64,000 nucleotides of DNA, taken from assembly GCA_022703645.1 (NCBI GenBank), contig JAKLDG010000001.1, forward strand, positions 573,393 to 637,392. Direction: 5' to 3'. Of this stretch, positions 1 through 59,800 are shown one piece after another; the stretch's first letter is position 1; each line of letters begins with the position of its first letter. The notes below the pieces were generated by a model, which saw only the letters and a list, made by a program, of their open reading frames with translations, had not been told where the DNA came from and made no database searches. The stretch is from Patescibacteria group bacterium (GTDB lineage: Bacteria > Patescibacteriota > JACPGU01). The translations under genes and the position numbers were made by a program.

Positions 1-3000
1 GAGCTGAGGTGGTAGTAGTGCTAGAAGCATCCACCACTACATTGGTATTTAATATTCCCTGATTGTCAGTCACATGAATAGTTGTGTTTGTAATGGAACT
101 CTGCGCAACCTTGGTTAACGCGGTAATCGCAATGACCGGCAGAGTGGTATCTATATTTATAGTCTTGAAATTATCAATGTTGCTATCAGCAGGTATCACC
201 GTACTGCTATCGGTATTTGGGTTTGTAATGTTATCTAATATAGTAGAAGAATTAATAGCCGAAACATTTATCGGCATTATATCTTCACCGCTCCCAATAG
301 CGCCAATAGTGTAAGTTGCCGCAATACTAGACCCTGAAACATTATTTAAAACCAAAGTCTTTCCGTTATTCAAGGTAATATTGAGTGAACTTCCGACTGC
401 TTTAATATTCTCATTGTAATTTGCGGTAATATTGACTGCCTGCCCAGCGCCATACGTACCATTGCTGGTAGTTGAAGTAATGTTTTGTAAAACCGGAGCT
501 GTGGTGTCTATCACGATATCCTTGCTATTGGCAATATTGTTTCCACCTGGAATTGATGGAGATGTATTGCTATTTGGGTTTTCAGCCGTTCTATCGGTAA
601 TAGTACCTGCAACACTGCTGACAGATAAGTCGCCTATATCTTGCCCGCTCCCGGTAGCTCCAACAGTATAAGTACCGCTATAAATAGTTTGATTATTTAC
701 CGCTCCTGTGTTAATAACTGCTCCGTTATTCAAAGTAATTGCTAAGCCTCCGACACTATTAACTGCCTCAGAGAAATTTAAAGTAATATTTATGCCAGCG
801 GTTGGACCGTAAGAACCATTTGTCGTTGTGGATGCCGCGCTGCTAATTGTCGGAGCGGTAGTATCTACTTTTATATCTTTGGAATTATTTATGTTTTGCC
901 CCGCATTGATTGTCGGATTGACAGTGGAATTATTGGATCCATCCGTTATAGTACCGGTAACTGTAGAAATTGATAAGTCATTTGTGTTTTGTCCGCTTCC
1001 CATTGCTCCTACTATATATATCCCGCTATAGCTGTTTTGATTTGTTAAAGCGCCGGTATTTATTACAGCGCCGGTATTTAAAGTAATCGCCAAACCAGCT
1101 GACGAAACTGTTTCATTGAAATTTAAAGTAATATTTATTTCCGATGTTGGACCGTAAGAACTGGTTGGAGTAGTAGAAGTAGCGCTGCTAATAATTGGCG
1201 CACCGGTATCAATAGTAAATGAAGTAATATTTATTGTATTGCTTTGATTGCCGGCAGCATCAGTAACTTTGAGAGTACAATTATTATGAGTACCAGCTCC
1301 TAAAGTATTAAAAGTAATGGTATTATTCCCTGATGTTGCGCTGCCTGTAGCAGACGAACAGTCCCCTCCATATGTAATAGTTCCATCCTCCGAAGAATTA
1401 AATGTGTAATCTGGAGTTGTATCATTGGTTGGAGTTGTTACGGGAGTTACTTGAGTGACGGTTGGATTAATATTATCTACTGTAAACGTTGCTCCGCTTG
1501 TTGGAGCAGAAGTTATAACATTACCAGATAAATCAGTACCGACTGATAAAGCAATGGTTGCGGTGCCATTTCCAGAACCAACTGTATGTATGTATGTATA
1601 ATGTGTGCTATCTACCTTTGTCATATCAGTTGCCGAAACAGTGTTTGATCCGGAGATAGCAATTTTTACAATTGGGCTATCTGCCATAGCTTCGGAGAAG
1701 GTTGCTGTGATGGTCAGAGAATCTCCCGCCTTTACAGATCCATCTGCATCCGAATACGTGATTGAAGCGGTTGGCGCAGAGGTATCTATGGTAAATGAAC
1801 TAACACCGAGGTTTGAACTTTGGTTGCCTACGGCATCGGTAACTTTTATCGTACAGTTACTATGAGTGCCTGCAGAAAGCGCATTAAATGTAACCGTATT
1901 ATTGCCTACTGTTGCGCTCGTTGTAGCTGAAATACAATCTCCGCCATAAGTAATAGTCCCGGCCTTGGTAGTATTAAATGTATAATCAGGAGTCGTATCA
2001 TTAGATGGAGTAACGACTGGGGTTACTTGAGTAACGACCGGAGCAGTAGTATCGATTGTAAAAGAATTAACATTAAGATTAGAACTTTGATTGCCGGCAG
2101 AGTCTGTAACTTTTATCGTACAATTGGAATGAGTTCCTGCAGAAAGTGTATTAAATGTTACCGTATTATTTCCAGCTGTCGCGCTGCCTGTAGCAGATGA
2201 ACAATCTCCTCCATATGTAATGGTGCCGGCTTCAGAAGTATTAAATGTATAATCTGGAGTCGTATCATTGGTTGGAGTTGTTACGGGAGTTACTTGAGTT
2301 ACGGTCGGAGCAGTGATATCTATATTAATATCATTAGCAGAAGCCAAAGTTGATTTATTTCCTACTGCATCTTCAGCGTATAAACAAATGTATTTGGTAT
2401 TATTCGCTTCGGTCGATTGATTCATACTATTGGCATCTGTCTTGGAATAATCGCCTGCCGTTGTTGAACAAGTACCATCAGCATCATAATCCCATTTTTT
2501 GACTGATGCATCACCCCAACCGGCTGTGATCGTATCGGACTGAATCGGTCCGGCCGCTACATTGTCTGAGAAAGAAAGAGAAGGGCCGGTAGTATCCAAA
2601 ATGAAATTCCCCATACTCGTCCAAGCAGACGTAGCTACTCCGTCATTATTCTGCGCGCACCAGTAATAGGTGGTATCTGAACCGATTGTTGAACCCGGTG
2701 TCCATGTAGTTGCTTCATTAATAGTTGCCGTTTCCCCAGATGTGCCGCTGGCAACAACTGAAGTGTTATTGAGACAATTCGCCGCACTGCCGGTTGCGAT
2801 ACGATAATTCGTCGTACCGGTATCATCCGTATCCGGATCTATATATTGAGCTGATAGAGTTGGTGTATTGTCAGCTGTCGTTGAGCCATTAGCAGGCGAA
2901 ACCAATGTTGGAACGCTTGGCGCTACGTTAACAGATTGACCGATTATGAAGTCACCAAATGCAGATAACCCGGTTGCTTGCGTGCTGGTAGAAGTTTTTG

Positions 3001-4537
3001 TACCAACAGTTGGGAGAGACCAGGTACCGGATTTTTCTCCAACTAAGAAACTATTCGTATCTGCCCCGCCGTCTATATCGCCTGCAGCATAATTAAAAGT
3101 TGCGCTATAATTATTAAATGCAATTCCGGAATTCACAAAAGTCCAATATCGGTTAACGCTTTTTGCTGAATTGATTCCTGAATTGGCAATGTCGGAATGA
3201 TCTCCATTTGTTGTACTAACCGTTAAGTCACCTGCTACAGTTACATTTCCAAAGGCGATTGTTACTGGAGCATAATTTGAATCACCGACATAAAAAGTCT
3301 TGCTGGTTGCGCCTGTCGCAATATATTTTTTAAAATTACCGATAATATAACCGGATGTTTGTGTCGTACTACCGGTTGAATTTACATAAATATTATTAGC
3401 CCCCGTCGTCACAGTTCCTTGGGCTAAATTAAGAGCCCCCCCTACAATCGTATTCCCGCCAAGCGCCACGCCAGATGCATTATTGATTTTCAACCCACCG
3501 TAAGTTAATGCGCTCACTGTCTGCGCGCTCGCCCCGGCATATTCTATAGTTAATCCGGAAATTGTATTGGTTGTAAATTTATATTGGCTGGAATAATCAG
3601 CCGTGGCAGCAGTTCGAGTTACTTGAACCGTACCGGAACCGGTAATGGTACCGGCAGCGCCGGCAGTATTGGCAACCACACCTGCATCTGCCGCAAAAGT
3701 CGCTCCTGAATCTACCTGCATCGTGCCACTAACATTGAAATTCGTACTAGCCGAAACTATATTTGAAGTATTGGAAATCGTTAAGTTATTAAAACTGGTC
3801 GCTGTTGAACCGCTAATATTCTGCGCTCCCGAACCGTTAAAAGTCACTGTACCGGAACGCTTGGTAAAGGTAGCATTATTAGTAAAATTCCCACCAACAT
3901 TTAAAGTGCGGTTGCTAGTAGTAACATCCAGTGTACCCGCTGAAATAAGAAGGTCGCCGGCAACTATAGTATTAACACTCAAACTATCTGTAAAACCGGT
4001 GCTGGCGATTGTTAAATTATTATAATTAGTAATTATTGCTGGCAGAGTCGTGTTGGCAGTATGAGCATATATGATAGTACCTGCCCCCGGTATAAAAGTT
4101 TGGTTTGTCGTTGTCCAAGAAGAACGGATTTTTAAATTACCACCATTAGTCATATCAATACTACTGCCCGCTACTGTAGATGAAACAGCTTTTACATTTA
4201 ATGTATGAGTACCACCAACCGGCCAGACCAGAGAACCGGCCATATTTTTACCTACAATCAACGCTCCATAAGCCAAGTCAGGATAAGCATCATCCACAAT
4301 AGCTTCACCATCAATTTGGAGAGTGTTCCCTGCAGCCGCTGCACCACTCCAACAATCCGTATCACTCATAAGACCGCTACAATTGGCGTTGCTTCTGGTA
4401 AATGTTTTACTCGCCGCTTCAACTGGTTTAGCATTATTATCGGCGAATAAAGTAATAAAAAAAGCGAGTACAAAAATACTCACTAACAGAACAGAAAGTA
4501 ATCCCTTTTTATTTTTGTTTCGAATAATTTTTTGCAT
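1..4537 (-). CDS. Giant repeat-rich cell-surface protein, N-terminal ~1512 codons (3' end beyond window start)
   Basis: Own minus-strand translation: ATG at 4535-4537 (MQKIIRNKNKKGLLSVLLVSIFVLAFFITLF, signal-anchor-like) stays open to position 1; spot-checked at 2599-2641 (GVATSAWTSMGNFIL). Missing from ORF track because no stop lies in window. T/S/N/G-rich Ig-like modules. Confidence 0.75.
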   Translation of the reverse strand, partial: MQKIIRNKNKKGLLSVLLVSIFVLAFFITLFADNNAKPVEAASKTFTRSNANCSGLMSDTDCWSGAAAAGNTLQIDGEAIVDDAYPDLAYGALIVGKNMAGSLVWPVGGTHTLNVKAVSSTVAGSSIDMTNGGNLKIRSSWTTTNQTFIPGAGTIIYAHTANTTLPAIITNYNNLTIASTGFTDSLSVNTIVAGDLLISAGTLDVTTSNRTLNVGGNFTNNATFTKRSGTVTFNGSGAQNISGSTATSFNNLTISNTSNIVSASTNFNVSGTMQVDSGATFAADAGVVANTAGAAGTITGSGTVQVTRTAATADYSSQYKFTTNTISGLTIEYAGASAQTVSALTYGGLKINNASGVALGGNTIVGGALNLAQGTVTTGANNIYVNSTGSTTQTSGYIIGNFKKYIATGATSKTFYVGDSNYAPVTIAFGNVTVAGDLTVSTTNGDHSDIANSGINSAKSVNRYWTFVNSGIAFNNYSATFNYAAGDIDGGADTNSFLVGEKSGTWSLPTVGTKTSTSTQATGLSAFGDFIIGQSVNVAPSVPTLVSPANGSTTADNTPTLSAQYIDPDTDDTGTTNYRIATGSAANCLNNTSVVASGTSGETATINEATTWTPGSTIGSDTTYYWCAQNNDGVATSAWTSMGNFILDTTGPSLSFSDNVAAGPIQSDTITAGWGDASVKKWDYDADGTCSTTAGDYSKTDANSMNQSTEANNTKYICLYAEDAVGNKSTLASANDINIDITAPTVTQVTPVTTPTNDTTPDYTFNTSEAGTITYGGDCSSATGSATAGNNTVTFNTLSAGTHSNCTIKVTDSAGNQSSNLNVNSFTIDTTAPVVTQVTPVVTPSNDTTPDYTFNTTKAGTITYGGDCISATTSATVGNNTVTFNALSAGTHSNCTIKVTDAVGNQSSNLGVSSFTIDTSAPTASITYSDADGSVKAGDSLTITATFSEAMADSPIVKIAISGSNTVSATDMTKVDSTHYTYIHTVGSGNGTATIALSVGTDLSGNVITSAPTSGATFTVDNINPTVTQVTPVTTPTNDTTPDYTFNSSEDGTITYGGDCSSATGSATSGNNTITFNTLGAGTHNNCTLKVTDAAGNQSNTINITSFTIDTGAPIISSATSTTPTSSYGPTSEINITLNFNETVSSAGLAITLNTGAVINTGALTNQNSYSGIYIVGAMGSGQNTNDLSISTVTGTITDGSNNSTVNPTINAGQNINNSKDIKVDTTAPTISSAASTTTNGSYGPTAGINITLNFSEAVNSVGGLAITLNNGAVINTGAVNNQTIYSGTYTVGATGSGQDIGDLSVSSVAGTITDRTAENPNSNTSPSIPGGNNIANSKDIVIDTTAPVLQNITSTTSNGTYGAGQAVNITANYNENIKAVGSSLNITLNNGKTLVLNNVSGSSIAATYTIGAIGSGEDIMPINVSAINSSTILDNITNPNTDSSTVIPADSNIDNFKTINIDTTLPVIAITALTKVAQSSITNTTIHVTDNQGILNTNVVVDASSTTTTSA
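140..1200 (-). repeat. Three tandem ~350-bp intragenic repeat units (~115-aa module) inside the giant surface gene
   Basis: Near-identical peptide modules in own translation (SYGPT..INITLNF.E.V...LAITLN.GAVINTGA...GSGQ..DLS.S.V.GTITD); boundaries approximate. Confidence 0.55.
1195..2320 (-). repeat. Three copies of a ~285-bp intragenic repeat (~95-aa module DTTAPTVTQVTPVTTPTNDTTPDYTFN...GGDCSSAT...CTIKVTD) at about 1195-1480, 1755-2040 and 2035-2320
   Basis: Near-identical nucleotide and peptide blocks seen in own translation; boundaries approximate. Confidence 0.6.
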
Positions 4538-4907: not shown

Positions 4908-4975
4908 AGAACTTAATTGGAAATTTTAACATTGTTTCATTGATTGAAAATTGTAAATTGAGAATTGAAAATTTA
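4908..4975. repeat. Degenerate GAAAATT/GGAAATT heptamer-type simple repeat (intergenic)
   Basis: ggaaattttaac...gattgaaaattgtaaattgagaattgaaaattt; same motif family recurs at 7856, 10480, 23751, 50759 and 51033. Confidence 0.5.
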
Positions 4976-5025
4976 TTTTGTATATTATAACACTATTATA
5001 ACTTCAACAGATAAAATAATTTTAT

Positions 5026-5056
5026 AACAAAAAAGGACTCCGCTTTCGCGGAGCCC
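5026..5056 (-). terminator. Rho-independent terminator downstream of glyQS
   Basis: Minus-strand RNA GGGCUCCGC-GAAA-GCGGAGUCC followed by UUUUUUGUU; 20 nt after the stop. Confidence 0.7.
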
Positions 5057-5075
5057 TTAATTAATCAATTTTTAT

Positions 5076-7222: not shown

Positions 7223-8134
7223 CTACTTTTGACATTTCGTACAGTAATGAGCACTGCGTTGGCCAATCCTGATCTTTTTCACCACTCCCCCACATTTTCC
7301 GCACCTTTGCTTTTCTTTTCGATAAACGAAACTATGTTCTTGATAATGGCCTTTAAGCCCAAATGCATCACGAAAATCTGACTCCGATGAACCGCGGTAC
7401 TTAATCGCTTTTTCGAGCACCGGACGAATAGATTTGTATATTTTAACCAATTCTTTTGTCTTTAAACTTTTTATCGTTCTATCCGGTCTTACCCCTGCGT
7501 AAAAAAGAATTTCATCGCCATAAATATTTCCAATCCCGGAAAACTTCGCTTGATCCATGAGAACAGACTTTATTTTACCTGTAGAACGACCTATTATGCT
7601 TTGGAACACATCAAAAGTAAATTTAGGGTCCAGTGGTTCCGGGCCGAGTTTGCTCTCAAGAGAAGAAAGATAATCGCGTTTTACGAGCCTCCATTCTCCA
7701 AACTTTCGCACATCCGAATAAGCTAAAATGTAGCCTCCTGAAAGTTCGAGAACGATATGAATATATTGATTCCTCGGATCCTGCAAAACCTCCGGCAAAT
7801 TCTCTCCTACCCATCTCCCCTTTTTTATATATTGTCGCGAAACGACTCTGCCATTGGAAATTGGAAATTGAGAATTGGAAATTATAATTATGTGTCCTGT
7901 CATTTTGAGATGAATCGTCAAAAGCATTTCTCCCGATAAAAAGATAATAATGTTCTTTGCTCTTCTTTCAACCTTCTCGATTTTCCTATTTTTTATCCTT
8001 TTTTTGAAATCAGCAAGCACCGCTCCTTTAATCAATTTTGGCGCATCGCAATACCTGAGGCCAATAATTGTCTTGCCCTTGATAGATTCATTTAGATCAT
8101 TTACAATAGTCTGCACCTCAGGTAATTCTGGCAT
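7223..8134 (-). CDS. mutM: Formamidopyrimidine-DNA glycosylase (Fpg/MutM; Nei not excluded)
   Basis: Starts MPELPEV (catalytic Pro2/Glu3); C-terminal zinc finger CGKCGG...HYCTKCQ; carries an in-frame heptamer-repeat insert. Confidence 0.88.
   Translation of the reverse strand: MPELPEVQTIVNDLNESIKGKTIIGLRYCDAPKLIKGAVLADFKKRIKNRKIEKVERRAKNIIIFLSGEMLLTIHLKMTGHIIIISNSQFPISNGRVVSRQYIKKGRWVGENLPEVLQDPRNQYIHIVLELSGGYILAYSDVRKFGEWRLVKRDYLSSLESKLGPEPLDPKFTFDVFQSIIGRSTGKIKSVLMDQAKFSGIGNIYGDEILFYAGVRPDRTIKSLKTKELVKIYKSIRPVLEKAIKYRGSSESDFRDAFGLKGHYQEHSFVYRKEKQRCGKCGGVVKKIRIGQRSAHYCTKCQK
7856..7883. repeat. GGAAATT-type heptamer tandem repeat (4 units) inside mutM coding sequence
   Basis: ggaaattggaaattgagaattggaaatt; encodes ISNSQFPIS on the minus strand. 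Confidence 0.6.
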
Positions 8135-10479: not shown

Positions 10480-10636
10480 TCTATTTTATTTATTTTAAAT
10501 AATTTTGTAATTTTTAATTTTTGAATTTTGTAAATAATTTATTAAATCTTAATTTTTAAATTCTCTTCGAAGATATTCTGTTTAAAAATTTGAAAATTAG
10601 AATTTATTTAAAAATTAAAAATTGCAAAATTAAAAA
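10480..10636. repeat. Intergenic AT-rich simple-repeat tract of the AAAATT/GAAAATT family
   Basis: tttgaattttgtaaat...tttgaaaattagaatttatttaaaaattaaaaattgcaaaattaaaaatt. Confidence 0.45.
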
Positions 10637-11263
10637 TTATCTTTTCAAAATTTCAGGAACCGGGATTCCCGCATATTCTTTTAATAAACCTTTTCCATAA
10701 ACAAGACGTGAGAAACATTCCGCTTCAAGCTTCGCGTCTTCAAGCGCGTTGTGCTCTTTCCTGTTGTCAATCATTCCACAAAGTTCGAGTGTTTTAGATA
10801 GTCCAAAATCCGAATGCCCGTTTTTAAATAAAAAATCTTTTTTTAAATCAAAGTATTTTAAATGCGCCACAGTATACAGATCCATACATCGATAAGAAAA
10901 AGGCAGACTCAATCCATATTTATCAGCCTTTGTTTTCATAAAAGCATAATCGAATTGAGGATTTTGACAAATCAGATCTTTTTCTTCGATTTCACTCACC
11001 CATTGAAAAAAATGTTCCAAAAGTTCCTTTTCACTTTGAGCGTTTTTATTCTTCATTTGTTCTTCACCTATTCCCAATAAATCCGTAACACTTTTTGAAT
11101 CCAGCATATTATCCGAATTTACAATAGTATATTCGTCCCCCAGTTTTGCGTCTTGCAAAAAAGTGTTGCCTGGATTTTTAATATCAATAGCGCCAATCTG
11201 AATTATTCCACACTTATTATAATCAACCCCGCTCGTTTCGATATCTACAACTATCATACACAT
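10637..11263 (-). CDS. DnaQ-like 3'-5' exonuclease (DEDDh family)
   Basis: Exo I VVDIETSG, Exo II NPQFDYAF, Exo III HNALEDAKL. Confidence 0.8.
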   Translation of the reverse strand: MCMIVVDIETSGVDYNKCGIIQIGAIDIKNPGNTFLQDAKLGDEYTIVNSDNMLDSKSVTDLLGIGEEQMKNKNAQSEKELLEHFFQWVSEIEEKDLICQNPQFDYAFMKTKADKYGLSLPFSYRCMDLYTVAHLKYFDLKKDFLFKNGHSDFGLSKTLELCGMIDNRKEHNALEDAKLEAECFSRLVYGKGLLKEYAGIPVPEILKR

Positions 11264-12029: not shown

Positions 12030-15231
<3,202 letters not shown>

Positions 15232-15724
15232 AATTTGCAACATTCAAAGCACTAACTGCTTAATATTGCTAACCTTGTTAATCTTCATGTTAGTTACATA
15301 TATTTTTACTCGATTTTCACATAGAATACTGTCGGCTGATCAAAATCAGATACGATATTCTATATGAATATATTATTAACGTTCGCTAGACAATCTCCTC
15401 TTGCTTTACTTTGCTAGCTTTATATCTCGTTTTCCAACAAGTTATCGAGCCAACAAACTAATCCCTAAAAATAAAAAATACCGCTCTATAAGCGGCTTTC
15501 TTCACACAAAGAAAACTTTTTTCTCACTTCCGCTTATATATTTTTTGATTGTAGTTTTTTAGAAACATTTATTTTTAGGCTAAAATATAATTATTTTTAC
15601 CTGTAAAAGCTATTTTATATCAATTATTGACCGCGGTCAACAACATTTTTTATCAGGTTAAAAATATGTTATTACTATTACTTTTAAAAATAACATATTA
15701 TATACTATTTGTCAATACACTTAA

Positions 15725-23057: not shown

Positions 23058-23984
23058 TCACAAATATTGAATTTCTTCTTCTAAATTTATATTAAATTTA
23101 TCGCGCACTTTCATTTTTATAATTCCAACTAATTGTGATAATTCATCGCTAGTCCCCTTGCCTTTATTTAAAATAATTCCTGCGTGTTTTTCACTCACAC
23201 AAATATCCCCAACACAAAATCCCTTTAAATCGCATTGATCGATTAGCCACGCAGCAGGAACAATTTTTTTTGTAACAAATTGATCGGGTATTTCAGAAAA
23301 TTTTTTCTTTAATATTTTTATTTCCCTTTCTTTTAATTCAACATTCTTGAAAAAACTTCCCGCGTTATACCCCCCTTTAAATTTATCTCCTCTTTCATTT
23401 TTTATTTTATCTATTTTTTCTTTTGCTGATTTTAATCTTTCAGTATTTCCTTTTTCTAATTTAATCTTTATTCCTAAAATAATATTCTCATCCTTTTTGA
23501 AAATACTTTCGCGATAACCAAATCCACATTCTTTATTTTTTAATTTAACAATTTTTCCGTTTCGCAAAACCGTAACCGCTTCAATACCATCTTTCATCTC
23601 TCCGCCATACGCTCCAGCATTTCCTCGTACCGCTCCACCCACAGTCCCCGGAATCCCCCACGCCCATTCCATGCCGATTAAACCATTTTTCATACTCTCA
23701 CTCACAACCTTAGCCAATGATACTCCTGCGTCGCATTCTATATATTCTTTGAAAATTGAAAATTGAAAATTGAAAATTTTGATGATAATCCCCTTGTATC
23801 CTTCGTCGCTCGCAATAACGTTAGAACCACCACCAAGGATAAAATATGACAAACTATTTTCTTCCGCAAATTCTAAAGCTTCTTTCAGCTCCTCAATGCT
23901 TTTCACTTCACAAAAATACCGCGCCGGTCCCCCGATATGAAATGTTGTATGTTTTGCTATGTTTTCATTTTCTATAATTCCCAT
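23058..23984 (-). CDS. murB: UDP-N-acetylenolpyruvoylglucosamine reductase
   Basis: FILGGGSNV, GMEWAWGIPGTVGGAVRGNAGAYGGE; in-frame (GAAAATT)x4 insert encoding FNFQFSIF. Confidence 0.88.
   Translation of the reverse strand: MGIIENENIAKHTTFHIGGPARYFCEVKSIEELKEALEFAEENSLSYFILGGGSNVIASDEGYKGIIIKIFNFQFSIFKEYIECDAGVSLAKVVSESMKNGLIGMEWAWGIPGTVGGAVRGNAGAYGGEMKDGIEAVTVLRNGKIVKLKNKECGFGYRESIFKKDENIILGIKIKLEKGNTERLKSAKEKIDKIKNERGDKFKGGYNAGSFFKNVELKEREIKILKKKFSEIPDQFVTKKIVPAAWLIDQCDLKGFCVGDICVSEKHAGIILNKGKGTSDELSQLVGIIKMKVRDKFNINLEEEIQYL
23751..23778. repeat. Perfect (GAAAATT)x4 heptamer tandem repeat inside murB coding sequence
   Basis: gaaaattgaaaattgaaaattgaaaatt read directly. Confidence 0.7.
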
Positions 23985-29623: not shown

Positions 29624-29804
29624 GCGTCCAAACTTTCTCAGTGTTCTCCGCGAAATCTTTTCTAAAAAGATTTCTCTATAAACACATCGCAAGTTTCTCC
29701 TTTTAAGAAAAAATCCGACTATATATCTCGGTGTAGATTTTTTCTTAGATTAATATTTATTCATAATTCATAATTCTAAATTTCAGATTCTAAATTCTTC
29801 CCCA

Positions 29805-39884: not shown

Positions 39885-40065
39885 AAAACCTCCTTCTAAT
39901 TAAAATAACCACAAGAAAAACTTGTGGTATTTGATAATATTATTTCTAAATTTTATATTACATTTTTGTAACATGGTTCTTGGTCGGTTTTTATAATTTT
40001 TGGTGAAAAACACAAAGCTCCCCACCAGCGATCTCTTGCGAGACCCACACCCCTTTCGGGGCATG

Positions 40066-40118
40066 ACCGACCAAGGTGCTCTGATGGAGAGCTTTCTACC
40101 TTGGTCGGGTTTTATACC
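40066..40118 (+). other. Nested stem-loop (12-bp stem accgaccaaggt/accttggtcggg plus inner gctc-tgatgga-gagc) followed by T-run
   Basis: Read directly; 18-nt motif cttggtcggtttttata also occurs at 39979-39995. Confidence 0.4.
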
Positions 40119-40256
40119 ATATCCTACAGATATACTGCAGGGGTTAGGTAACTAAATTGTTAGTCCTATCTTAGCAGATAAAACACTCAAAGTAAAGCGT
40201 TATTGAGCTGGTCTTTTAACGCCTTTTATGCCATAATTTAAGAAATAAATATCATT

Positions 40257-40823
40257 ATGAAGAAAAAGACTATAAATAAAAATATAGAACCAGTATCCTT
40301 TCCCAAGCTTTTTGAATGGGGTTCGAGAAAGTCGAACAAACCTGTAATTTTGGATTATCTTAGTAAGCATACGGAAGTTAATATGATGAAATCATTAATG
40401 CCAAAGGGATTAGTAACACATGGAAATATGGCATCACAAATCAAGCTTAATCTACCAGATCGAAACATGGCAGATATTATAATAGATGGGATCGCAGCAA
40501 AGCTCAACGCTTCTGGAGACAAAATTGTTCTATATATCAATTCAAGTGGTGACTTGTATCAAAAAGGAGATCAAGAACATAAACACTCTTTCAAATTATC
40601 ATCTCTAAGATTTCAGATATTAAGAATTTTAAAAGATTCTTTTGTAAAGCCGGAATATATTAGACACGAAACCGATAGTGTAAGTGTAGGATCCGTCAGA
40701 AAAGCAGTTAATGAGATTAACAGCCAAGTGAAAATAAAGCTTGGCATTGAAAACAACATAATTGAGGGTAAAGGCGGTAGCGGATACAGGATTAATCCAA
40801 AATATAAACTAGAATTTATCTAA
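40257..40823 (+). CDS. Hypothetical protein (first gene of phage-derived module)
   Basis: 188-aa ORF; no SD; no family recognised. Confidence 0.45.
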   Translation: MKKKTINKNIEPVSFPKLFEWGSRKSNKPVILDYLSKHTEVNMMKSLMPKGLVTHGNMASQIKLNLPDRNMADIIIDGIAAKLNASGDKIVLYINSSGDLYQKGDQEHKHSFKLSSLRFQILRILKDSFVKPEYIRHETDSVSVGSVRKAVNEINSQVKIKLGIENNIIEGKGGSGYRINPKYKLEFI

Positions 40824-50758: not shown

Positions 50759-50790
50759 GGAAATTGATTGGAAATTGAAAATTGTAAATT
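50759..50790. repeat. GGAAATTG-type heptamer repeat between rsmD stop and comEA start
   Basis: ggaaattgattggaaattgaaaattgtaaatt. Confidence 0.55.
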
Positions 50791-51319
50791 ATGTTTTCTC
50801 AAAAAACATTACCCGCGTATCGCCATAAACCTTTTCAACTATCAGATCAAGATTTTCTAATTTTCCTGTTTTAATACGTTTACTGCTCTCTAAAATAAAA
50901 ATCCCGTTTTTGTTTAGAATTCTATATATATCATTTAATTTCCCGAAATCGAATTGATAATATGGCGGATCCGCAAAAATCAGGTCAAATTTCTTCTCAC
51001 TTTTTTTTATAAATATTTCATAAGAAATATTTAAAATTGAAAATTTAAAATTGAAAATTTTAAGATTGTTCTTTAACTGCTTAATTACCATTTTGCTTTC
51101 ATCAACAAATGTAACTGATTCAGCCCCTCGACTTGCCGCCTCTATCCCATACATCCCGCTTCCGCAAAAAAGATCGGCAACATTCGTGCTTTCAAGGTCA
51201 ACCAGACCTTTAAGCACATCAAAAACCGCCTTGCGCACCTTATCCGTCGTAACGCGAGTCCCCTTTTGCTCTTTATAGTTAACTATTGCCCCAGCAAGAG
51301 AGCCTTCGATAATTTTCAT
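50789..51319 (-). CDS. rsmD: 16S rRNA (guanine-N2)-methyltransferase, RsmD-like
   Basis: DLFCGSGMYGIEAASRG motif I, FADPPY motif IV; in-frame (AAAATTGAAAATTT)x2 insert encoding FNFKFSI. Confidence 0.85.
   Translation of the reverse strand: MKIIEGSLAGAIVNYKEQKGTRVTTDKVRKAVFDVLKGLVDLESTNVADLFCGSGMYGIEAASRGAESVTFVDESKMVIKQLKNNLKIFNFKFSILNISYEIFIKKSEKKFDLIFADPPYYQFDFGKLNDIYRILNKNGIFILESSKRIKTGKLENLDLIVEKVYGDTRVMFFEKT
51033..51060. repeat. (AAAATTGAAAATTT)x2 tandem repeat inside rsmD coding sequence
   Basis: aaaattgaaaatttaaaattgaaaattt read directly. Confidence 0.65.
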
Positions 51320-53828: not shown

Positions 53829-56800
53829 GTGAATACAAAAACTAGTTTCAAAAAAAGCGTCCTGTTATTTCTCTCGGTTACTATATTATTAGTTGTAATT
53901 GCGGTTTTGATTCCTGCTTTCACGAAAATTCTAGATCAGAATAAAACTAATACATACAAAATCTCTTTCACTGACCCATTAAACTTTAGTTACAGCCCAG
54001 AAAAAATTACAATAGATGGAAGTGGTGCAAGATTAATCGACATAAATGAAAAAGGGCTCGTTGAGACATCAACACCAATTACCCTGCCAAAGGATGTTAA
54101 GCTGCTAGGCTTTAAAGAAGTATCGGACAAAAAAGGAAATTCTGATATATCCTACCGAGTAACTACTAGTAGTAATAGCTGGTATTATTTTGATGGATCG
54201 AACTGGAGAATCGTTCCTGAAAGCTGCAAAGATTGCACTAATAACGCTCAAGAAATAGATAAAAATATCGGAAGTTTGCCAATTGAATCGACAAATCTAA
54301 AAATTAATACTTATCTTTCTAGTACTTCAAAAGGTATACCAATATTAAATTCAATTAAATTGATTACTCGTGGAAATGAGATAAAACGACTCTATGCTGA
54401 AAAACCAAATTACAAATTCCAATCTTCTTACGCAGAAGAAGGAGCTGATAATTGCGTATGCAAAGATGCGATAAAAACATTGCAGCTTAAATATGTTGGC
54501 CCGAGCGATGTTACTATTAATATTTATGAAGAAGATAACCATAAAAAATTATTCAAAACTTTCTCGGGCGTATCTAATGGTGATATATTGACTTTTTCTG
54601 GCAGCTTAGATAATGCTGAAAAAATAAAAGATAAATTATTTTTTGAAATACCAAATTCTGGGATTGCTGATATAGATCAATACGTAAAATGCGACAAAAT
54701 AAAGCTCGGGTTAGTTTTTGGTAATTTTACGGTCGTTGGCTATACAGATAAAGAAGATCATATCTGTAATGGCGCGTCAACCAACCAAGCGCCTATTATT
54801 AATGATGATACGGCGACAACTCCAAAAAATGTTACCGTAATAGTAGATGTCTTGTTGAATGACTTAGATTCAGATGGGACTTTATCTCCGTCAACAGTGA
54901 TAGTAACCACAAGCCCAACGAATGGTATTATCGCAAATATAAATTCTAATACTGGAGAAATATCTTATACCCCAAGTAATGATTATACCGGGACTGATAC
55001 TTTTGTTTATAAAGCATGTGATAATTTCGGCCTTTGCGATGAGGCAAATGTAACAGTAAATATTTCTGGCGGTGGATCGGGATCAATAATAGATGGTAAA
55101 AAAGATAGCTTTTATGGAAACGCAACACCTCAGTGCTTTATGGATATGCCCGTCGGAACACTATATACATATCTCGATGCTTCGGGCAACCTCTATATAT
55201 ATTATGAACAATCGAAGAACGTAGTTGATAATACTTATGGAACCAATATTGTAAATTGGTCTAGAAGCCATAGCTTTAGCGATCTTGTCGGAAGCGATGG
55301 GGCTCAATTTAATATTAAAGATTCTCTTGGTAACACAGTTCTGACTTTTAATTCTGATTATGTATCATCAAATAATGCCTTAACATCTAAATATGGCTGT
55401 TTGGGTGTTGCGGGTGGCGAAGGAGGAATTACTGTTGGCAGCGCAGCAAATATTTTAGGAGCAAAAACATCTATTGATTATAACCTTAATGTTTTAGGTT
55501 GCGCGTTTACAACCAACTCTCCTCCAGCGGATGCAAGCTATAATCCTACTGATGGCAGTTGCCCTTCCTGGATTTTTGAAGATTCTTACGAAGTCGGTAT
55601 TTCCAAAAATGCTTTTGGAGCAAATGGATTTGGAAGTGTTGATGTGGTTTACGTTCATGACTCGCCTTCAAAATTAGGAACAAATAAAATAATACCTGAT
55701 ACTTGCGGTGGTGGATCTTGCGGCAATGGAACTATCGAACAAGGAGAACAGTGCGATGATGGAAACACAAACAATGGAGATGGATGCAGCGCAACTTGCC
55801 AAAAAGAAACAACGAATAAAAAGCCACCTGTTGCCAAAAACGATAATGCAAAAACTTTTCAGGATGAACCAGTAACAATTGATGTTTTGGCAAATGATTC
55901 TGACCCTGATGGCAATATTGATCCAACTACTGTCACTATTACTACAAATCCTACTCATGGAACTGTTAGTGTCGACCCAGTGACTGGCGAAGTTACTTAC
56001 ACTCCTGATTCTGGATTTAGCGGAAAAGATAAATTTCGATATACAGTTAAAGACAGTGGCGGTTTAGTTTCAAATATTGCAGAGGTAACGATTGATATCG
56101 ACAAAAACCCAACTGCATGCGGATGCTACAAACACTTGACAAAACTTGTTTTAAAATATAATGGGACCCAAAGCGCTACAATAAAAGTTATAAAAGAAAA
56201 AGGTACGACTGCCTACTTTGAAGGAAACGTTTTACCGGGCGGACAAATTACCGCATACAATGGCGGTTCTAGTTTGGGAGATAGTGTTCAAGTTTATATA
56301 AATGGAATCCTTAATGCTTCATTTGATGCTGATTGCGATATTGAAGAAACAACTGGAAAAGAAACGGAAGTTGGTTTAGTTGTTGGTTTCTTTGAAGTTA
56401 TTAGTGGACAAAGTGATAAAGCACACCCGATCTGCGGTTCAATCCAAACCAATCTTCCTCCTATCGCTGATGATGACTCAGCTACCACACTGAAAAATAC
56501 TCCAACCACTATTAATGTTTTAAGTAATGATTCTGACCCAGATGGATACCTTGTTCCTTCTACAGTTACAGTTACCGTAAATCCATCTCATGGTACTACA
56601 ACAATAAATAGCACGACCGGAGCTATAACATATACACCAAATAACAATTTTACTGGGACAGATGTCTTTACTTATCAAGTATGCGATAACGAAGGTTTAT
56701 GCGATACTGCTGTAGTTACAATAATTGTAAATAAAACTGAAAATAATAAACCACCGGTTGCTAAAAATGAAACTGTTCATACACTGCAAGACGAACCAGT

Positions 56801-59800
56801 AGATATTGATATTTTAGCTAACGATTCCGACCCTGATGGTACAATCGATCCAACAACTGTGATAATAACTACGAACCCTTCAAATGGCACAGTTAGTGTT
56901 AATCCAACAACTGGAGAGGTTACCTACACACCTATCCCAGGATTCAGCGGTCAAGATAAATTCTATTATACTGTTAAAGACAATCTTGGATTGATTTCAA
57001 ATATTGCAGAAGTAAAGATTTACGTAGATAAAAACCCAAATTCTTGTGGATGCTACAAAAAACTTACCAAACTCGTCTTAAGATATAATGGCACAACAAG
57101 TGCCACGCTAAAATTTATTAAAGAAGGCGGTACTACTGCATATTTTGAAGGAACCGTCTCTCCTGGCGAACTAATTACCGCATACAATGGCGGTTCTGGT
57201 TTGGGAGATAGTGTTCAGGTTTATATAAATGGAATCCTCAATGCTACATTTGACGCTGACTGTGACGAAGAAGAAACAAGCGGAAAAGAAACCGAGGTAG
57301 GACTTGTTGTAGGTTTGATGGAAGTTATGGCTGGAGAAAGCTACAAGGCAATTCCGCTTTGTTCAAATGTCACGAATCTACCCCCTATCGCTAATGATAA
57401 TTCAGCTACAACATTAAAAAATACTCCCGTTGCTATTAGTGTTTTAAACAATGATTCTGATCCTGATGGAATATTAGTTCCTTCAACTGTTACAGTAACT
57501 GTTAACCCAAACCATGGGACTACTACTATTAATAGTATAACTGGGGTAATAACTTATACACCAAATAATAACTTTACTGGCATAGACACTTTCACTTACC
57601 AAGTATGTGATGACGGGGGTTTATGTGACACGGCGATTGTAACAGTAAATGTAAATGCTATTGCGCAACCTCCTGTCGCTGTTGATGACTCAGCCGCAAC
57701 TCCAAAAAATACCCCGACAACAATTGATGTTTTACTCAATGATTACGGTATTAGTGGAAACTTAGTCCCCTCTTCGGTAGTTATCACAGTTCCTCCAGCT
57801 CATGGAACTGTCACAAATATTAATCCTGCAAACGGAGAAATAACTTATACACCATATAACAACTTTACGGGAAATGATTCATTTACTTATTCAGTTTGTG
57901 ATACTAATTCATTATGCGATACAGCAGTAGTGGCGATAAGCATAAATGCAAATCCTCTACCTCCAGTTGCTAATGATGATACAACGGCAACCATAAAAAA
58001 TAACCCCGTTGTAATTGATGTTTTAGTAAACGATTTTGATCCAGATGGATATCTTATTCCTTCAACTGTTAGTATAACGGTTAACCCAAATAATGGAACA
58101 ATTACAAATATTAATACGACAACTGGAGAAATAACATATAGCCCAAATAACAACTTTACTGGAACGGACACTTTCAATTATCAAGTTTGTGACAATAATG
58201 GTTTATGTGATACTGCATTGGTCACTATAACAATAGAAAAAGATAAGGTGCCTATATGTCATTACACGGGAATAGTTGGCGACCTATATGTATTTATGAG
58301 ATTAGATGAAGCACAATTGCAAACCCACCTACCTCATACTTTGGATATTATCCCAATAACGGATCGTAACGGAGATGGAAAGGTTTATAAAGATGATTGT
58401 GATTATATTTCAAATCTTCCCCCAATCGCAAATAATGATTCTGTAAACACAAATGAAGATACTCCAACAACCATCAACGTTTTAGCCAATGATATTGCGG
58501 TTAGTAGCCCCCTTGTGCCATCCAGCGTTATCATACTTAGCAACCCAAGTCATGGAACTATTACTGGTATTGACCCAATAACGGGGATAATTAGCTACAC
58601 ACCAAACACTGGGTATAATGGAACTGACACATTTACCTACAGAGTTTGCGATGGTAATGGACTTTGTGACTCAGCCACAGTTACGGTAAATGTGTTGGGA
58701 GCAAACCTACCTCCTATCGCAAATAACGATACAGCCTCAACTATAGCTACAGACCCTGTTGTAATAGGTGTATTGTTAAATGATTCTGACCCTGATGGCA
58801 CACTTAACCCAGCTAGCGTTACCGTGACTGTCCCTCCATCAAATGGTGTTATCACAAATATCAATCCAATTAATGGTAATATAACTTATACTGCAAACCC
58901 TGGATTTTATGGAACGGATAATTTCACTTATCAGGTTTGCGATAATGAAGGCCTTTGCGCAACGGCAACAGTCAGTATTACTGTTAAGGCAAGACCAATT
59001 GCTCAAAATGATTCCGCATTCACTGATAAAAATAAACCTGTTGAAGTAGATGTTTTGAATAATGACTCTACACCAAGTGGTACGCTAGTCCCTTCATCAG
59101 TTGTTGTTACTTCTAACCCAAGTAATGGAACCGTAACAGTTGATAGTACGACTGGAAAAATAACTTATAATCCATTAACAAACTTTACTGGTGTTGATAG
59201 TTTTGAATACCAAGTTTGCAATAGCTACGGATTATGTGACACGGCTACAGTAAATATAGGGGTTTCTTCCAAACTTCCACCTGTTGCTAATGATGATTCT
59301 TCTACAACTAACCAAAACACTCCTGTAGTAATAAATATTCTATCTAATGATACTGCGCCAAGTGGCACTATTAACCCTGCTACTGTAAATATTACTTCTA
59401 ACCCAGCTAATGGAATTGTTACAGTCGATAGCACTACCGGCCAAGCAACTTATACACCAAACATTGGTTTTTATGGAACAGATGTTTTCACTTATATAGT
59501 AAAAGATAGCAATGGCCTTGAATCAAATATTGCAACAGTCACGATAACAATAAAAGCACCTCCGATAGCAAATAATGACGAAACTAACACGCCATATAAT
59601 ACACCTGTAGTTGTAAATATATTAGGAAATGATCTCGACCCTGATGGTTCTCTTGTCCCATCTACGGTTGCTATTATCTCTGATCCAACTCACGGAACAA
59701 TAATTGTCGATACTACAAACGGCAAGGTAACTTATACTCCTAATACAGGTTATTATGGCACCGATTCTTTTACCTACCAAGTTAAAGATAATGACGGATT

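What the first reader, a model, noticed from the sequence alone, without database searches (positions are those of the whole stretch)
23751..23778. Dispersed GAAAATT-type heptamer tandem repeats inserted in-frame in three unrelated housekeeping genes and in intergenic DNA
Seen: (GAAAATT)x4 in murB (23751-23778, encoding FNFQFSIF), (AAAATTGAAAATTT)x2 in rsmD (51033-51060, FNFKFSI), GGAAATT-type x4 in mutM (7856-7883, ISNSQFPIS), plus related tracts at 4908-4975, 10480-10636 and 50759-50790. Established: perfect short tandem repeats are slippage-prone, and heptamer copy-number changes shift the reading frame. Finding one perfect repeat family inside three essential-looking genes is unexpected. 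Inference: either a self-propagating short insertion module tolerated in surface loops, or a lineage-specific low-complexity feature.
Basis: partly seen in the sequence, partly recalled or inferred. Interest (0 to 1): 0.5.

Follow-up and report, generated by a model that had tools for sequence, protein, structure and literature searches.

The report
Heptamer tandem repeats in a Patescibacteria clade
The short 7-base tandem repeats inside murB, mutM and rsmD are real and belong to a clade-wide excess of heptamer repeats already known from other bacteria; unusually, they sit at the same codons in related genomes with different repeat units and mostly no change in protein length.

Summary
The window, from a Patescibacteria MAG, holds 8 period-7 arrays against about 0.1 expected. 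Five loci match (GAAAATT)x3 within 3 mismatches, all on the + strand, giving 10 matches against 0.07 expected.

In MurB and RsmD the repeat-encoded peptides are not insertions, because orthologues have equal length there. Only in MutM does the array adjoin a roughly 13-residue lineage-specific loop.

- **Clade-specific and period-specific.** Relatives with at least 63% MutM identity carry 33 period-7 arrays in about 55 kb, and no other period exceeds 6. A 54% outgroup has none, and 628 kb of distant loci show no period-7 excess.
- **Same sites, different units.** Relatives carry period-7 arrays at the same mutM, murB and rsmD codons, but the unit sequence differs. Units within an array resemble each other more than aligned orthologous positions do, which indicates homogenisation in place.
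- **Mostly intergenic.** 38 of 53 arrays lie in the 18% of DNA that is non-coding, and many abut the upstream stop codon.

Best explanation: a lineage-specific bias towards slippage or template switching in a 7-nt register, filtered by selection. This is a new member of the known heptanucleotide simple-repeat class (cyanobacterial STRR, TAACTGA, GGGAATC). A function for the arrays is not excluded.

The parts
23749..23778 (-). Perfect heptamer array, (AATTTTC)x4.3 on the sense strand, inside murB. It encodes K69-F78 (KIFNFQFSIF).
   Evidence: The lag-7 score is 21/21, the maximum for the gene. The AF2 model places it at the end of one strand, a 4-residue turn and the next strand, with pLDDT about 90.
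23058..23984 (-). murB (UDP-N-acetylmuramate dehydrogenase), host gene of the perfect array.
   Evidence: NCBIfam TIGR00179, 228 bits. It is 100% identical to P0001 from a Patescibacteria MAG on an 867-kb contig.
7853..7883 (-). Heptamer array in mutM/fpg: sense AATTTCC AATTCTC AATTTCC AATTTCC. It encodes I84-N94 (IISNSQFPISN).
   Evidence: The gene-wide lag-7 maximum, 17/21, falls at codon 84. It adjoins a clade-specific loop of about 13 residues that is modelled with pLDDT below 50 at residues 93-98.
7223..8134 (-). mutM/fpg (formamidopyrimidine-DNA glycosylase), host gene.
   Evidence: NCBIfam TIGR00577, 255 bits. The exact protein is on record as HRY60534.1.
51024..51067 (-). Heptamer array in rsmD with period 7/14: sense AATTTTC and AATTTTA alternating. 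It encodes about residues 86-98 (KIFNFKFSILNI).
   Evidence: The gene-wide lag-7 maximum is 18/21 at codon 87. There is no insertion relative to orthologues.
50789..51319 (-). rsmD (16S rRNA m2G966 methyltransferase family), host gene.
   Evidence: NCBIfam TIGR00095 at 108.5 bits, below the curated cut-off of 117.5. It is 100% identical to P0121, which NCBI names an RsmD family methyltransferase.
50765..50794 (-). Array overlapping the rsmD stop codon, 25 nt upstream of the comEA start. Sense: AATTTAC AATTTTC AATTTCC.
4941..4976 (-). Intergenic array (sense AATTTTC AATTCTC AATTTAC AATTTTC). It lies 100 nt downstream of the glyS stop, beyond the glyS terminator hairpin (5033-5058), and about 400 nt upstream of a giant minus-strand gene.
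   Evidence: The relative L130 has arrays in the equivalent spacer.
10501..10535 (.). Intergenic AATTTTG/AATTTTT-type array. It is the inverted partner of 10608-10639, between the family-4 UDG gene and a DnaQ-like exonuclease gene.
   Evidence: The spacer folds as a weak AU hairpin, z = -2.3.
10608..10639 (.). AAAAATT-type array overlapping the stop codon of the exonuclease gene (10637-11263).
29749..29789 (.). Intergenic period-7 array with a different unit (ATTCATA / AATTCTA).

Best explanation
These tracts are heptanucleotide simple-sequence repeats produced by a mutational bias specific to one Patescibacteria clade.

**Proposed mechanism (inferred).** During replication or repair the nascent strand transiently misaligns by 7 nt on a neighbouring similar sequence, or on an inverted one. 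It copies a few bases and then realigns. Each such event, or a paired +7/-7 slippage, converts the neighbouring sequence into another copy of the unit without changing length. Imperfect AT-rich proto-repeats are therefore homogenised into arrays of about 4 units, and the units of an array then evolve together.

**Role of selection.** Selection decides where arrays survive. They are common in spacers, especially just after stop codons and away from the promoter and start region. Inside genes they survive only in the orientation and unit variants that contain no stop codon in any frame, only when the reading frame is kept, and only at structurally tolerant, indel-prone sites. Those sites here are a hairpin turn in MurB, a loop in MutM, and a variable stretch of RsmD that has equal or greater length in orthologues.

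**What is shown and what is inferred.**
- Shown: the existence of the arrays, their period specificity, their restriction to the clade, their positional conservation with unit turnover, length neutrality in MurB and RsmD, and their intergenic enrichment.
- Inferred: the template-switch or slippage mechanism, the reason the register is 7, and the absence of a dedicated function.
For: **Period specificity.** The window has 8 arrays at period 7, 0-3 at periods 5-6 and 8-13, and 4 at period 14, which is twice 7; simulations give about 0.1.

**Unbiased clade test.** Loci were chosen by MutM homology, not by repeat content.
- The close clade (about 55 kb) has 33 period-7 arrays, and no other period exceeds 6.
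- L134 (54% identity, 21 kb) has none.
- 628 kb of distant loci have 20 at period 7, against 23, 27 and 33 at periods 6, 9 and 12.

**Same site, different unit.**
- All 7 clade mutM genes have their gene-wide lag-7 maximum at codons 82-85. The units are CAATTYY, TAATTYC, CCAATTY, CAAAWST, TATNAAG and TAGTAAG. Outgroups score only 10/21.
- At murB codons 68-69 the units are AATTTTC (window), AAATTTC (L121), GAATNAA (L209) and a weak one in L122.
- In rsmD the window has TTTCAAT/TTTAAAT and L210 has AATATTN.

**Homogenisation in place.** Within-array unit identity is 0.71-0.90. Between-species identity at aligned positions is 0.48 for mutM and 0.64 for murB.

**Length neutrality.**
- MurB and RsmD orthologues have equal length at the site.
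- L132 and the outgroup L134 have the same length in mutM and share TAYAAAGTAGT, so the array looks like that sequence spreading upstream.
- An in-frame inverted array pair in L212 recG is also length-neutral against the window's recG.

**Filtering by selection.**
- 38 of 53 arrays lie in the 18% of DNA that is non-coding.
- 13 of 25 spacer arrays begin within -12 to +17 nt of the upstream stop codon, against 5.3 expected (p about 3e-4). None lies that close to a start codon.
- (GAAAATT)n has TGA in every frame, so only the AATTTTC orientation can be coding. This follows directly from the sequence.
- The perfect murB array uses a unit that is stop-free in all three frames.

**Literature.** Heptanucleotides are reported as the most abundant long simple-repeat class in repeat-rich prokaryotes, and polymerase slippage has been proposed as the cause (Mrazek 2007, as summarised in PMC4679880; PMC4692102).
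Against: - No polymorphism in copy number was seen. Two assemblies of the same population are identical, so ongoing slippage is not demonstrated.
- A perfect 4-unit array inside an essential gene is a frameshift hazard that selection should erode. Its persistence at the same codons through about 35% protein divergence could instead mean the periodicity itself is selected.
- Placement next to stop codons and a sense-strand bias towards C over G (22 against 10) could reflect a function in RNA.
- No enzyme or feature that would set a 7-nt register was identified.
- Within a genome, units are slightly more alike than between genomes (p about 0.02). Purely local evolution does not predict this.
Confidence: 0.6

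Rival explanations
1. The arrays are functional cis-elements. On the sense strand they are G-poor, unstructured, C-punctuated A/U-rich RNA tracts, or the corresponding DNA. They would serve as multivalent binding sites for a general nucleic-acid-binding protein such as a cold-shock-domain protein, S1 or Rho, or, as inverted pairs, as hairpins acting in mRNA 3' ends, decoupling or processing. The coding copies would be the same elements embedded in mRNAs.
For: - Arrays sit next to upstream stop codons and are absent from the 30 nt before start codons.
- The sense strand shows a C-over-G trend, opposite to the gene-strand G excess of this genome.
- Positions are conserved in spacers of the UDG-mutM-recO-glyS gene cluster across relatives, with a shared CAAATAACAAATTACAAAC motif.
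- Inverted pairs fold as hairpins.
- Periodicity persists at the same codons although the unit changes.
- Comparable placement is reported for GGGAATC repeats (PMC4692102), and a translational role has been proposed for TAACTGA repeats (PMC4679880).
Against: - Unit sequences differ widely between relatives at the same site (CAATTTC, TATTAAG, CAAAAGT, AGCTTTT), which argues against sequence-specific recognition.
- Avoidance of the start-proximal region is equally explained by purifying selection on promoters. Many genes here look leaderless or lack a Shine-Dalgarno sequence.
- The orientation bias is modest, 22 against 10.
- Hairpin z-scores for the spacers are weak, -2.3 and -3.0.
- No binding factor was identified.
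Confidence: 0.22
2. This is the first reader's mobile-module idea: a very small self-propagating element that inserts copies of a heptamer block into genes and spacers.
For: - Within the window, six arrays share one unit family, all in the same orientation relative to transcription.
- Within-genome units are slightly more alike than between genomes.
- In the relative L130, two nearly identical hairpin insertions of about 175 nt, built of inverted heptamer arrays, lie at two places in one 23S rRNA gene. That does look like a dispersed insertion.
- MutM has a clade-specific extra loop next to the array.
Against: - MurB and RsmD show no length gain at the array.
- The short tracts have no terminal inverted repeats or target-site duplications.
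- Orthologous sites carry arrays with different units, and a pasted module would not produce that.
- The arrays are imperfect and grade into flanking sequence.
Confidence: 0.08
3. The arrays are contingency (phase-variation) loci. Gain or loss of one 7-nt unit would switch mutM, rsmD and murB off and on, for example giving a reversible mutator state through mutM.
For: - A 7-nt unit shifts the frame.
- mutM and rsmD are dispensable in model bacteria (general knowledge).
- The cluster representative P0259 is a 175-residue protein, 91% identical to the C-terminal part of the window's MutM. It starts at an internal position (MELSG, where the window has L129), which might be a truncated allele.
Against: - murB is essential for peptidoglycan synthesis, so an off state would be lethal.
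- Two assemblies show no copy-number difference.
- All seven clade mutM genes examined are intact with about 4 units.
- The genes are housekeeping genes, not surface or restriction-modification genes.
- The P0259 contig could not be read, so truncation may only reflect where the contig ends or how the gene was called.
Confidence: 0.05
4. The arrays are a chance or compositional artefact of an AT-rich genome, of its codon usage, or of MAG assembly.
For: The genome is about 35% G+C and the units are AT-rich. Some lower-scoring period-7 signals in these genes are just lysine-rich A-runs.
Against: - Shuffles and Markov simulations give 0.07-0.1 expected, against 8-10 observed.
- Only period 7 and its double, period 14, are clearly enriched, not periods 6, 9 or 12 as coding repeats would give.
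- AT-rich outgroup loci lack the excess.
- An independent assembly is identical.
- Relatives from different samples and assemblers show arrays at the same codons.
Confidence: 0.01

Closest known systems
Heptanucleotide long simple sequence repeats of prokaryotes (Mrazek, Guo and Shah 2007, as summarised in PMC4679880 and PMC4692102)
   Same: - Tandem 7-nt units dispersed over many loci of a genome.
- Period 7 specifically over-represented compared with other unit lengths from 5 to 11 nt.
- A sporadic, lineage-specific distribution.
- Mostly non-coding.
- Slippage at the polymerase has been proposed as the origin.
   Different: - The host is a small, AT-rich Patescibacteria genome, whereas the repeat-rich genomes described were mainly large ones such as Burkholderia, cyanobacteria, actinobacteria and Xanthomonas.
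- Several arrays lie in-frame inside housekeeping genes.
- Comparison with relatives shows conservation of position with turnover of the unit. I did not find this described in the papers I read.
Cyanobacterial STRR heptamers (Calothrix/Anabaena/Nostoc) and GGGAATC / GGGGAYT repeats of Xanthomonas and Nostoc (Rehm et al. 2015, PMC4692102)
   Same: - Heptamer arrays of about four units.
- Over-represented in non-coding DNA and preferentially between co-directional ORFs.
- Close to the stop codon of the upstream gene.
- Occasional inverted pairs able to form stem-loops. All of these were seen here too.
   Different: - Units here are AT-rich with a single C or G, so a G-quadruplex cannot explain them or the length of about 4 units.
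- There is no single dominant unit per genome.
- The coding copies are retained in essential genes.
TAACTGA direct repeats of marine Beggiatoaceae, some cyanobacteria and Bacteroidetes (MacGregor 2015, PMC4679880)
   Same: - Dispersed heptamer direct repeats of 2-6 copies.
- One orientation has stop codons in all frames, so only the reverse orientation occurs inside ORFs.
- Copies inside ORFs sit at tolerant places.
- The genomes have few Shine-Dalgarno sequences.
   Different: - TAACTGA repeats lie immediately upstream of start codons. Here none of 25 spacer arrays lies within 17 nt of a start codon, and half abut the upstream stop.
- A single conserved unit there contrasts with many units here.
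- ORF copies there lie at protein termini. Here they are internal, at codons 69-98.
Heptanucleotide coding repeats in phase-variable genes, such as the neuO O-acetyltransferase of E. coli K1 (PMC13001214; details from my own knowledge)
   Same: A 7-nt unit is read in all three frames within an ORF, so copy number decides whether the frame is kept.
   Different: - neuO repeats are numerous, polymorphic and located at the 5' end of an accessory surface-modification gene, where they act as a switch.
- Here there are about 4 units, no polymorphism was seen, and the arrays are internal to housekeeping genes.
Templated mutagenesis at quasi-repeats and quasi-palindromes (the Ripley model; phage T4 work of Schultz and Drake; from my own knowledge)
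   Same: It explains how an imperfect direct or inverted repeat becomes perfect through a cluster of substitutions with no length change. That matches what is inferred at the murB, rsmD, mutM (L132 against L134) and recG (L212) sites.
   Different: The model describes rare individual mutations in laboratory systems. It has not been described as a genome-wide bias specific to a 7-nt register that shapes a whole clade.

Membership tests
Heptanucleotide long simple sequence repeats (STRR-like) | Head-to-tail tandem copies of a 7-nt unit, three or more copies | tested here: met
   TRF reports period 7 with 4.3-5.0 copies at 4943, 7853, 10608, 23749 and 51024. The lag-7 scan finds 8 arrays.
Heptanucleotide long simple sequence repeats (STRR-like) | Over-representation of period 7 relative to chance and to other unit lengths | tested here: met
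   In the window: 8 at period 7, 0-3 at periods 5-6 and 8-13, 4 at period 14 (twice 7), and about 0.1 in simulations. In the clade: 33 arrays at period 7 and no more than 6 at any other period.
Heptanucleotide long simple sequence repeats (STRR-like) | Many dispersed loci, enriched in non-coding DNA | tested here: met
   There are 53 arrays in 153 kb of clade DNA. 38 of them lie in the 18% that is non-coding.
Heptanucleotide long simple sequence repeats (STRR-like) | Lineage-restricted occurrence | tested here: met
   The excess is present in loci with at least 63% MutM identity. It is absent from L134 (54% identity) and from 628 kb of more distant loci.
Cyanobacterial STRR sensu stricto | Cyanobacterial host and the canonical units (CCCCAGT, TTGGTCA, CAACAGT; from my own knowledge) | tested here: not met
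   The host is a Patescibacteria MAG. The units are AAAWTNN-type.
Phase-variation contingency locus | A simple repeat within an ORF or promoter whose unit length is not a multiple of three | tested here: met
   7-nt units lie inside the murB, mutM and rsmD ORFs.
Phase-variation contingency locus | Copy-number polymorphism between cells or strains, giving on and off alleles | tested here: inconclusive
   Two assemblies are identical, and all clade orthologues examined are intact. One possibly truncated relative, P0259, could not be inspected. No read data were available.
Phase-variation contingency locus | The gene is dispensable and of variable benefit (surface, restriction-modification and similar) | tested here: not met
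   The hosts are murB (peptidoglycan synthesis), fpg and rsmD.
Miniature mobile insertion element (MITE or small dispersed repeat) | The filled site is longer than the empty orthologous site by the element length | tested here: not met
   MurB and RsmD have equal length at the site. MutM short forms also carry an array. The roughly 175-nt hairpins in the L130 23S rRNA do meet this feature, but they are a different and larger object in a relative.
Miniature mobile insertion element (MITE or small dispersed repeat) | Defined ends (terminal inverted repeats) or target-site duplication, with near-identical copies | tested here: not met
   The short tracts have no terminal repeats or duplications. 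Copies are imperfect and differ in length and unit.
Sigma-70 promoter-like element | -35 and -10 hexamers at 16-18 nt spacing, conserved in relatives | tested here: not met
   Only threshold-level antisense matches were found, TTGAAA-17-GAAAAT at 9 of 12 positions. Units in relatives do not keep these hexamers.

The most novel reading that the evidence does not exclude
The 7-nt periodicity itself may be maintained, either by selection on an RNA or DNA property or by a clade-specific templated-conversion activity. Under this reading, defined sites, including codons of an essential gene, are repeatedly rewritten into arrays of about four heptamers without changing length, while the unit is free to drift. 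This Patescibacteria clade would then be a compact comparative system: small genomes, orthologous arrays with different units, and an outgroup without arrays. It could be used to find the factor behind the long-noted but unexplained dominance of heptamers among prokaryotic long simple repeats.
Probability: 0.2. Interest if true: 0.7.

Novelty: new member of a known kind. Interest (0 to 1): 0.42.

Why it matters
An excess of heptanucleotide repeats in some bacteria has been on record since STRR (1990) and the 2007 survey of simple repeats, but its cause is still unknown.

This case adds three things:
- It occurs in a reduced, AT-rich candidate-phyla-radiation genome, which rules out G-quadruplex explanations.
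- It includes in-frame arrays inside housekeeping genes, among them murB, which is essential for peptidoglycan synthesis.
- Related genomes carry arrays at the same codons with different units and the same protein length. This points to homogenisation in place rather than insertion.

There is also a practical point. These arrays are frameshift-prone spots in housekeeping genes of MAGs. Annotators could mistake natural or sequencing-induced unit changes there for pseudogenes.

Tried and rejected
- **Genome-collection pattern scan.** It showed that AATTGNN arrays are widespread, but no control pattern could be run, so over-representation of this unit across bacteria is not established. One result is usable: the flanks of those loci hold 226 further period-7 arrays, against 1-38 at other periods.
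- **Insertion hypothesis.** Rejected for MurB and RsmD from alignments and PDB homologues.
- **Promoter hypothesis.** Only minimal antisense matches were found, and they are not conserved in relatives.
- **Genome-specific unit 'dialect' (a trans-acting template or binding protein).** The effect is weak, 1.97 against 2.16 with p about 0.02, so it was not pursued.
- **Replication-strand explanation for the uniform orientation.** Arrays on both sides of the skew switch at about 40 kb keep the orientation of their genes. Orientation therefore follows transcription and coding constraints, although only two arrays lie to the right of the switch.
- **Known RNA families.** No Rfam family overlaps any array.
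- **Secondary lag-7 peaks in these genes.** These are lysine-rich A-runs, not arrays.
Full report
**1. The observation**

The window is about 35% G+C. It comes from a Patescibacteria MAG: its MurB, RsmD and MutM are identical to proteins on an 867-kb contig.

The reported tracts are all present.
- 23749-23778 is a perfect TTGAAAA x4.3 array.
- 7853-7883 is ATTGGAA-type x4.4.
- 51024-51067 alternates GAAAATT and TAAAATT.
- All three lie in minus-strand ORFs that NCBIfam identifies as murB, fpg/mutM and rsmD. The rsmD match scores just below the curated cut-off.
- They encode KIFNFQFSIF, ISNSQFPISN and IFNFKFSIL.
- Intergenic tracts lie at 4941-4976, 10501-10535, 10608-10639 and 50765-50794, with one more at 29749-29789.

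The signal is far above chance.
- (GAAAATT)x3 with up to 3 mismatches matches 10 times at 5 loci, all on the + strand, against 0.07 in shuffles.
- Counting arrays by lag (at least 16 of 21 matches) gives 8 at period 7, 0-3 at periods 5-6 and 8-13, and 4 at period 14, which is twice 7. Simulations give about 0.1.
- A second assembly of the same population is 100% identical over 20.9 kb, including the murB array.

**2. Are they insertions?**

*MurB.* The array-encoded segment aligns without gaps to 19 orthologues and is 1-2 residues shorter than PDB homologues. The same site carries +5 and +14 residue insertions in two other orthologues, so it tolerates indels. An AlphaFold model (pLDDT 92.7) places K69-F78 at the end of one beta-strand, a four-residue turn and the next strand.

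*RsmD.* There is likewise no insertion.

*MutM.* The array adjoins an extra loop of about 13 residues that is found only in some close relatives. That loop is modelled with pLDDT below 50.

'Inserted in-frame' is therefore wrong for two of the three genes.

**3. Relatives**

Contigs were fetched for orthologues with 58-71% protein identity.
- *mutM.* All seven clade members have their gene-wide maximum of 7-nt periodicity at codons 82-85, but the units differ.
  - The units are CAATTYY (window), TAATTYC (L126), CCAATTY (L129), CAAAWST (L130), TATNAAG (L131 and L133) and TAGTAAG/TATAAAG (L132).
  - The last three are short forms without the extra loop. Outgroups score only 10/21.
- *murB.* At codons 68-69 the units are AATTTTC (window, 21/21), AAATTTC (L121, 19/21), GAATNAA (L209, 16/21) and a weak one in L122 (15/21). 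L123 has none. The length is identical in all.
- *rsmD.* The window has TTTCAAT/TTTAAAT and L210 has AATATTN. L211 and L212 hold only two copies of another unit.

Units within an array are 0.71-0.90 identical. Aligned positions between species are only 0.48 (mutM) and 0.64 (murB) identical. This is the signature of concerted evolution, or of repeated homogenisation in place.

L132 and the outgroup L134 have the same length and share TAYAAAGTAGT. The L132 array looks like that sequence spreading upstream.

A further case is recG of L212. It holds an in-frame inverted pair of AAGTATA arrays and is length-neutral against the window's recG.

**4. How specific is the phenomenon?**

Loci retrieved by MutM homology alone give an unbiased test.
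- The close clade (about 55 kb) has 33 period-7 arrays, and no other period exceeds 6.
- L134 (54% identity, 21 kb) has none.
- 628 kb of more distant loci have 20 at period 7, against 23, 27 and 33 at periods 6, 9 and 12.

The excess is therefore specific to the clade and to period 7.

Across 153 kb of clade DNA, which is 82% coding, 15 arrays are coding and 38 are intergenic. That is roughly an eleven-fold higher density in spacers.

Among 25 arrays in co-directional protein-gene spacers, 13 begin within -12 to +17 nt of the upstream stop codon, against 5.3 expected (p about 3e-4). None lies that close to a start codon.

The sense strand tends to carry C rather than G (22 against 10). For coding copies this is forced, because (GAAAATT)n contains TGA in every frame. 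Units within one genome are only slightly more alike than units between genomes.

**5. Explanation**

The best-supported account is a mutational bias filtered by selection. Transient misalignment of the nascent strand in a 7-nt register, or onto an inverted copy, converts neighbouring sequence into further copies without net length change. Paired +7/-7 slippage would have the same effect. Units of an array then evolve together.

Selection removes arrays from most coding positions and from the promoter and start region. It leaves them in spacers and at tolerant, indel-prone sites of proteins, in the stop-free orientation.

The mechanism is inferred, and no polymorphism was observed.

- The main rival is that the periodicity is itself functional, as binding sites on RNA or single-stranded DNA or as 3'-end hairpins. 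Placement at stop codons, the strand trend and the persistence at identical codons fit it. The diversity of units argues against sequence-specific recognition.
- A mobile module, phase variation and chance are less likely, for the reasons given under the rival explanations.

**6. Comparison with what is known**

- Heptanucleotides are reported as the most abundant class of long simple repeats in repeat-rich prokaryotes, and polymerase slippage has been suggested as the cause (Mrazek et al. 2007, as summarised in PMC4679880).
- GGGAATC repeats of Xanthomonas and Nostoc lie between aligned ORFs, near stop codons, prefer about four units and can form inverted pairs (PMC4692102).
- TAACTGA repeats of Beggiatoaceae lie upstream of start codons, and one orientation is stop-rich (PMC4679880).
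- My own pattern scan shows AATTGNN arrays in many phyla. The flanks of those loci hold 226 further period-7 arrays, against 1-38 at other periods.

The present case meets all the defining features of that class that I tested, so I file it as a new member.

What I did not find described in the papers read is the positional conservation with unit turnover, and length-neutral arrays inside essential genes. The AT-rich units also show that G-quadruplex formation is not needed for arrays of about four heptamers.

**7. Verdict**

The finding is real and non-random, and its interpretation is partly correct. It belongs to a known but unexplained kind of bacterial repeat, and it brings an informative comparative twist. 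Interest is moderate.

Noticed in passing
L130:3095-3275 and L130:4674-4840 (23S rRNA gene of a relative, contig Ga0209777_10000007): The 23S rRNA gene of this relative is 3583 nt long. It carries two nearly identical insertions of about 175 nt at different positions, both absent from the window and from L132. Each insertion is an inverted pair of heptamer arrays, (CAAATNN)n ... (NNATTTG)n. The copy that was folded forms a very stable hairpin (-69.7 kcal/mol, z = -10). They look like a dispersed, intervening-sequence-like or MITE-like element built from heptamer arrays.
   Followed up: partly
L212:8004-8091 (recG of a relative): An in-frame inverted pair of AAGTATA / TACTTAA heptamer arrays lies inside recG. 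It encodes KYKVLSIKYK...LNTKYLIHNT and is length-neutral against the window's recG (62558-63976).
   Followed up: partly
L001-L120 (genome contigs pattern scan): AATTGNN-type heptamer arrays occur in many phyla. These include 60-65% G+C Thermoanaerobaculia and Planctomycetes, where AT-rich arrays flank GC-rich terminator-like hairpins as inverted pairs (L039, L118) or sit directly before start codons (L018, L039, and several Bacteroidales loci). The flanks of these loci hold 226 additional period-7 arrays, against 1-38 at other periods.
   Followed up: partly
P0259 (ENA, 1065-nt contig; not readable): This 175-residue protein is 91% identical to the C-terminal part of the window's MutM and is the representative of its 90% cluster. 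It starts at an internal position (MELSG, where the window has L129). It could be a truncated allele downstream of the array, or an effect of the contig end or of gene calling.
   Followed up: no
window 39,900-40,260: Gene orientation and GC skew both switch at about 40 kb: minus-strand genes with negative skew to the left, plus-strand genes with positive skew to the right. A LOOT RNA (RF03000, 96.6 bits) lies at 40030-40150. This may be the replication origin region.
   Followed up: no
window 1-4537 (-) and 53829-62495 (+): There are two giant ORFs. One is longer than 1513 residues, runs off the left end of the window and contains a 267-bp tandem duplication at 1782-2314. The other is 2888 residues. 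The relative L130 has a protein of more than 3296 residues at the syntenic place after glyS.
   Followed up: no
window, upstream of many genes (for example 7223-8134, 23058-23984, 50789-51319): TATAAT-like hexamers lie 6-9 nt upstream of the ATG and no Shine-Dalgarno sequence is visible. This suggests that many mRNAs are leaderless. Only some genes have GGAGG.
   Followed up: no
window 12031-15233: The 23S rRNA gene is 3203 nt, against a 2925-position Rfam model, so it carries about 280 nt of extra sequence. No period-7 array passed the threshold inside it.
   Followed up: no
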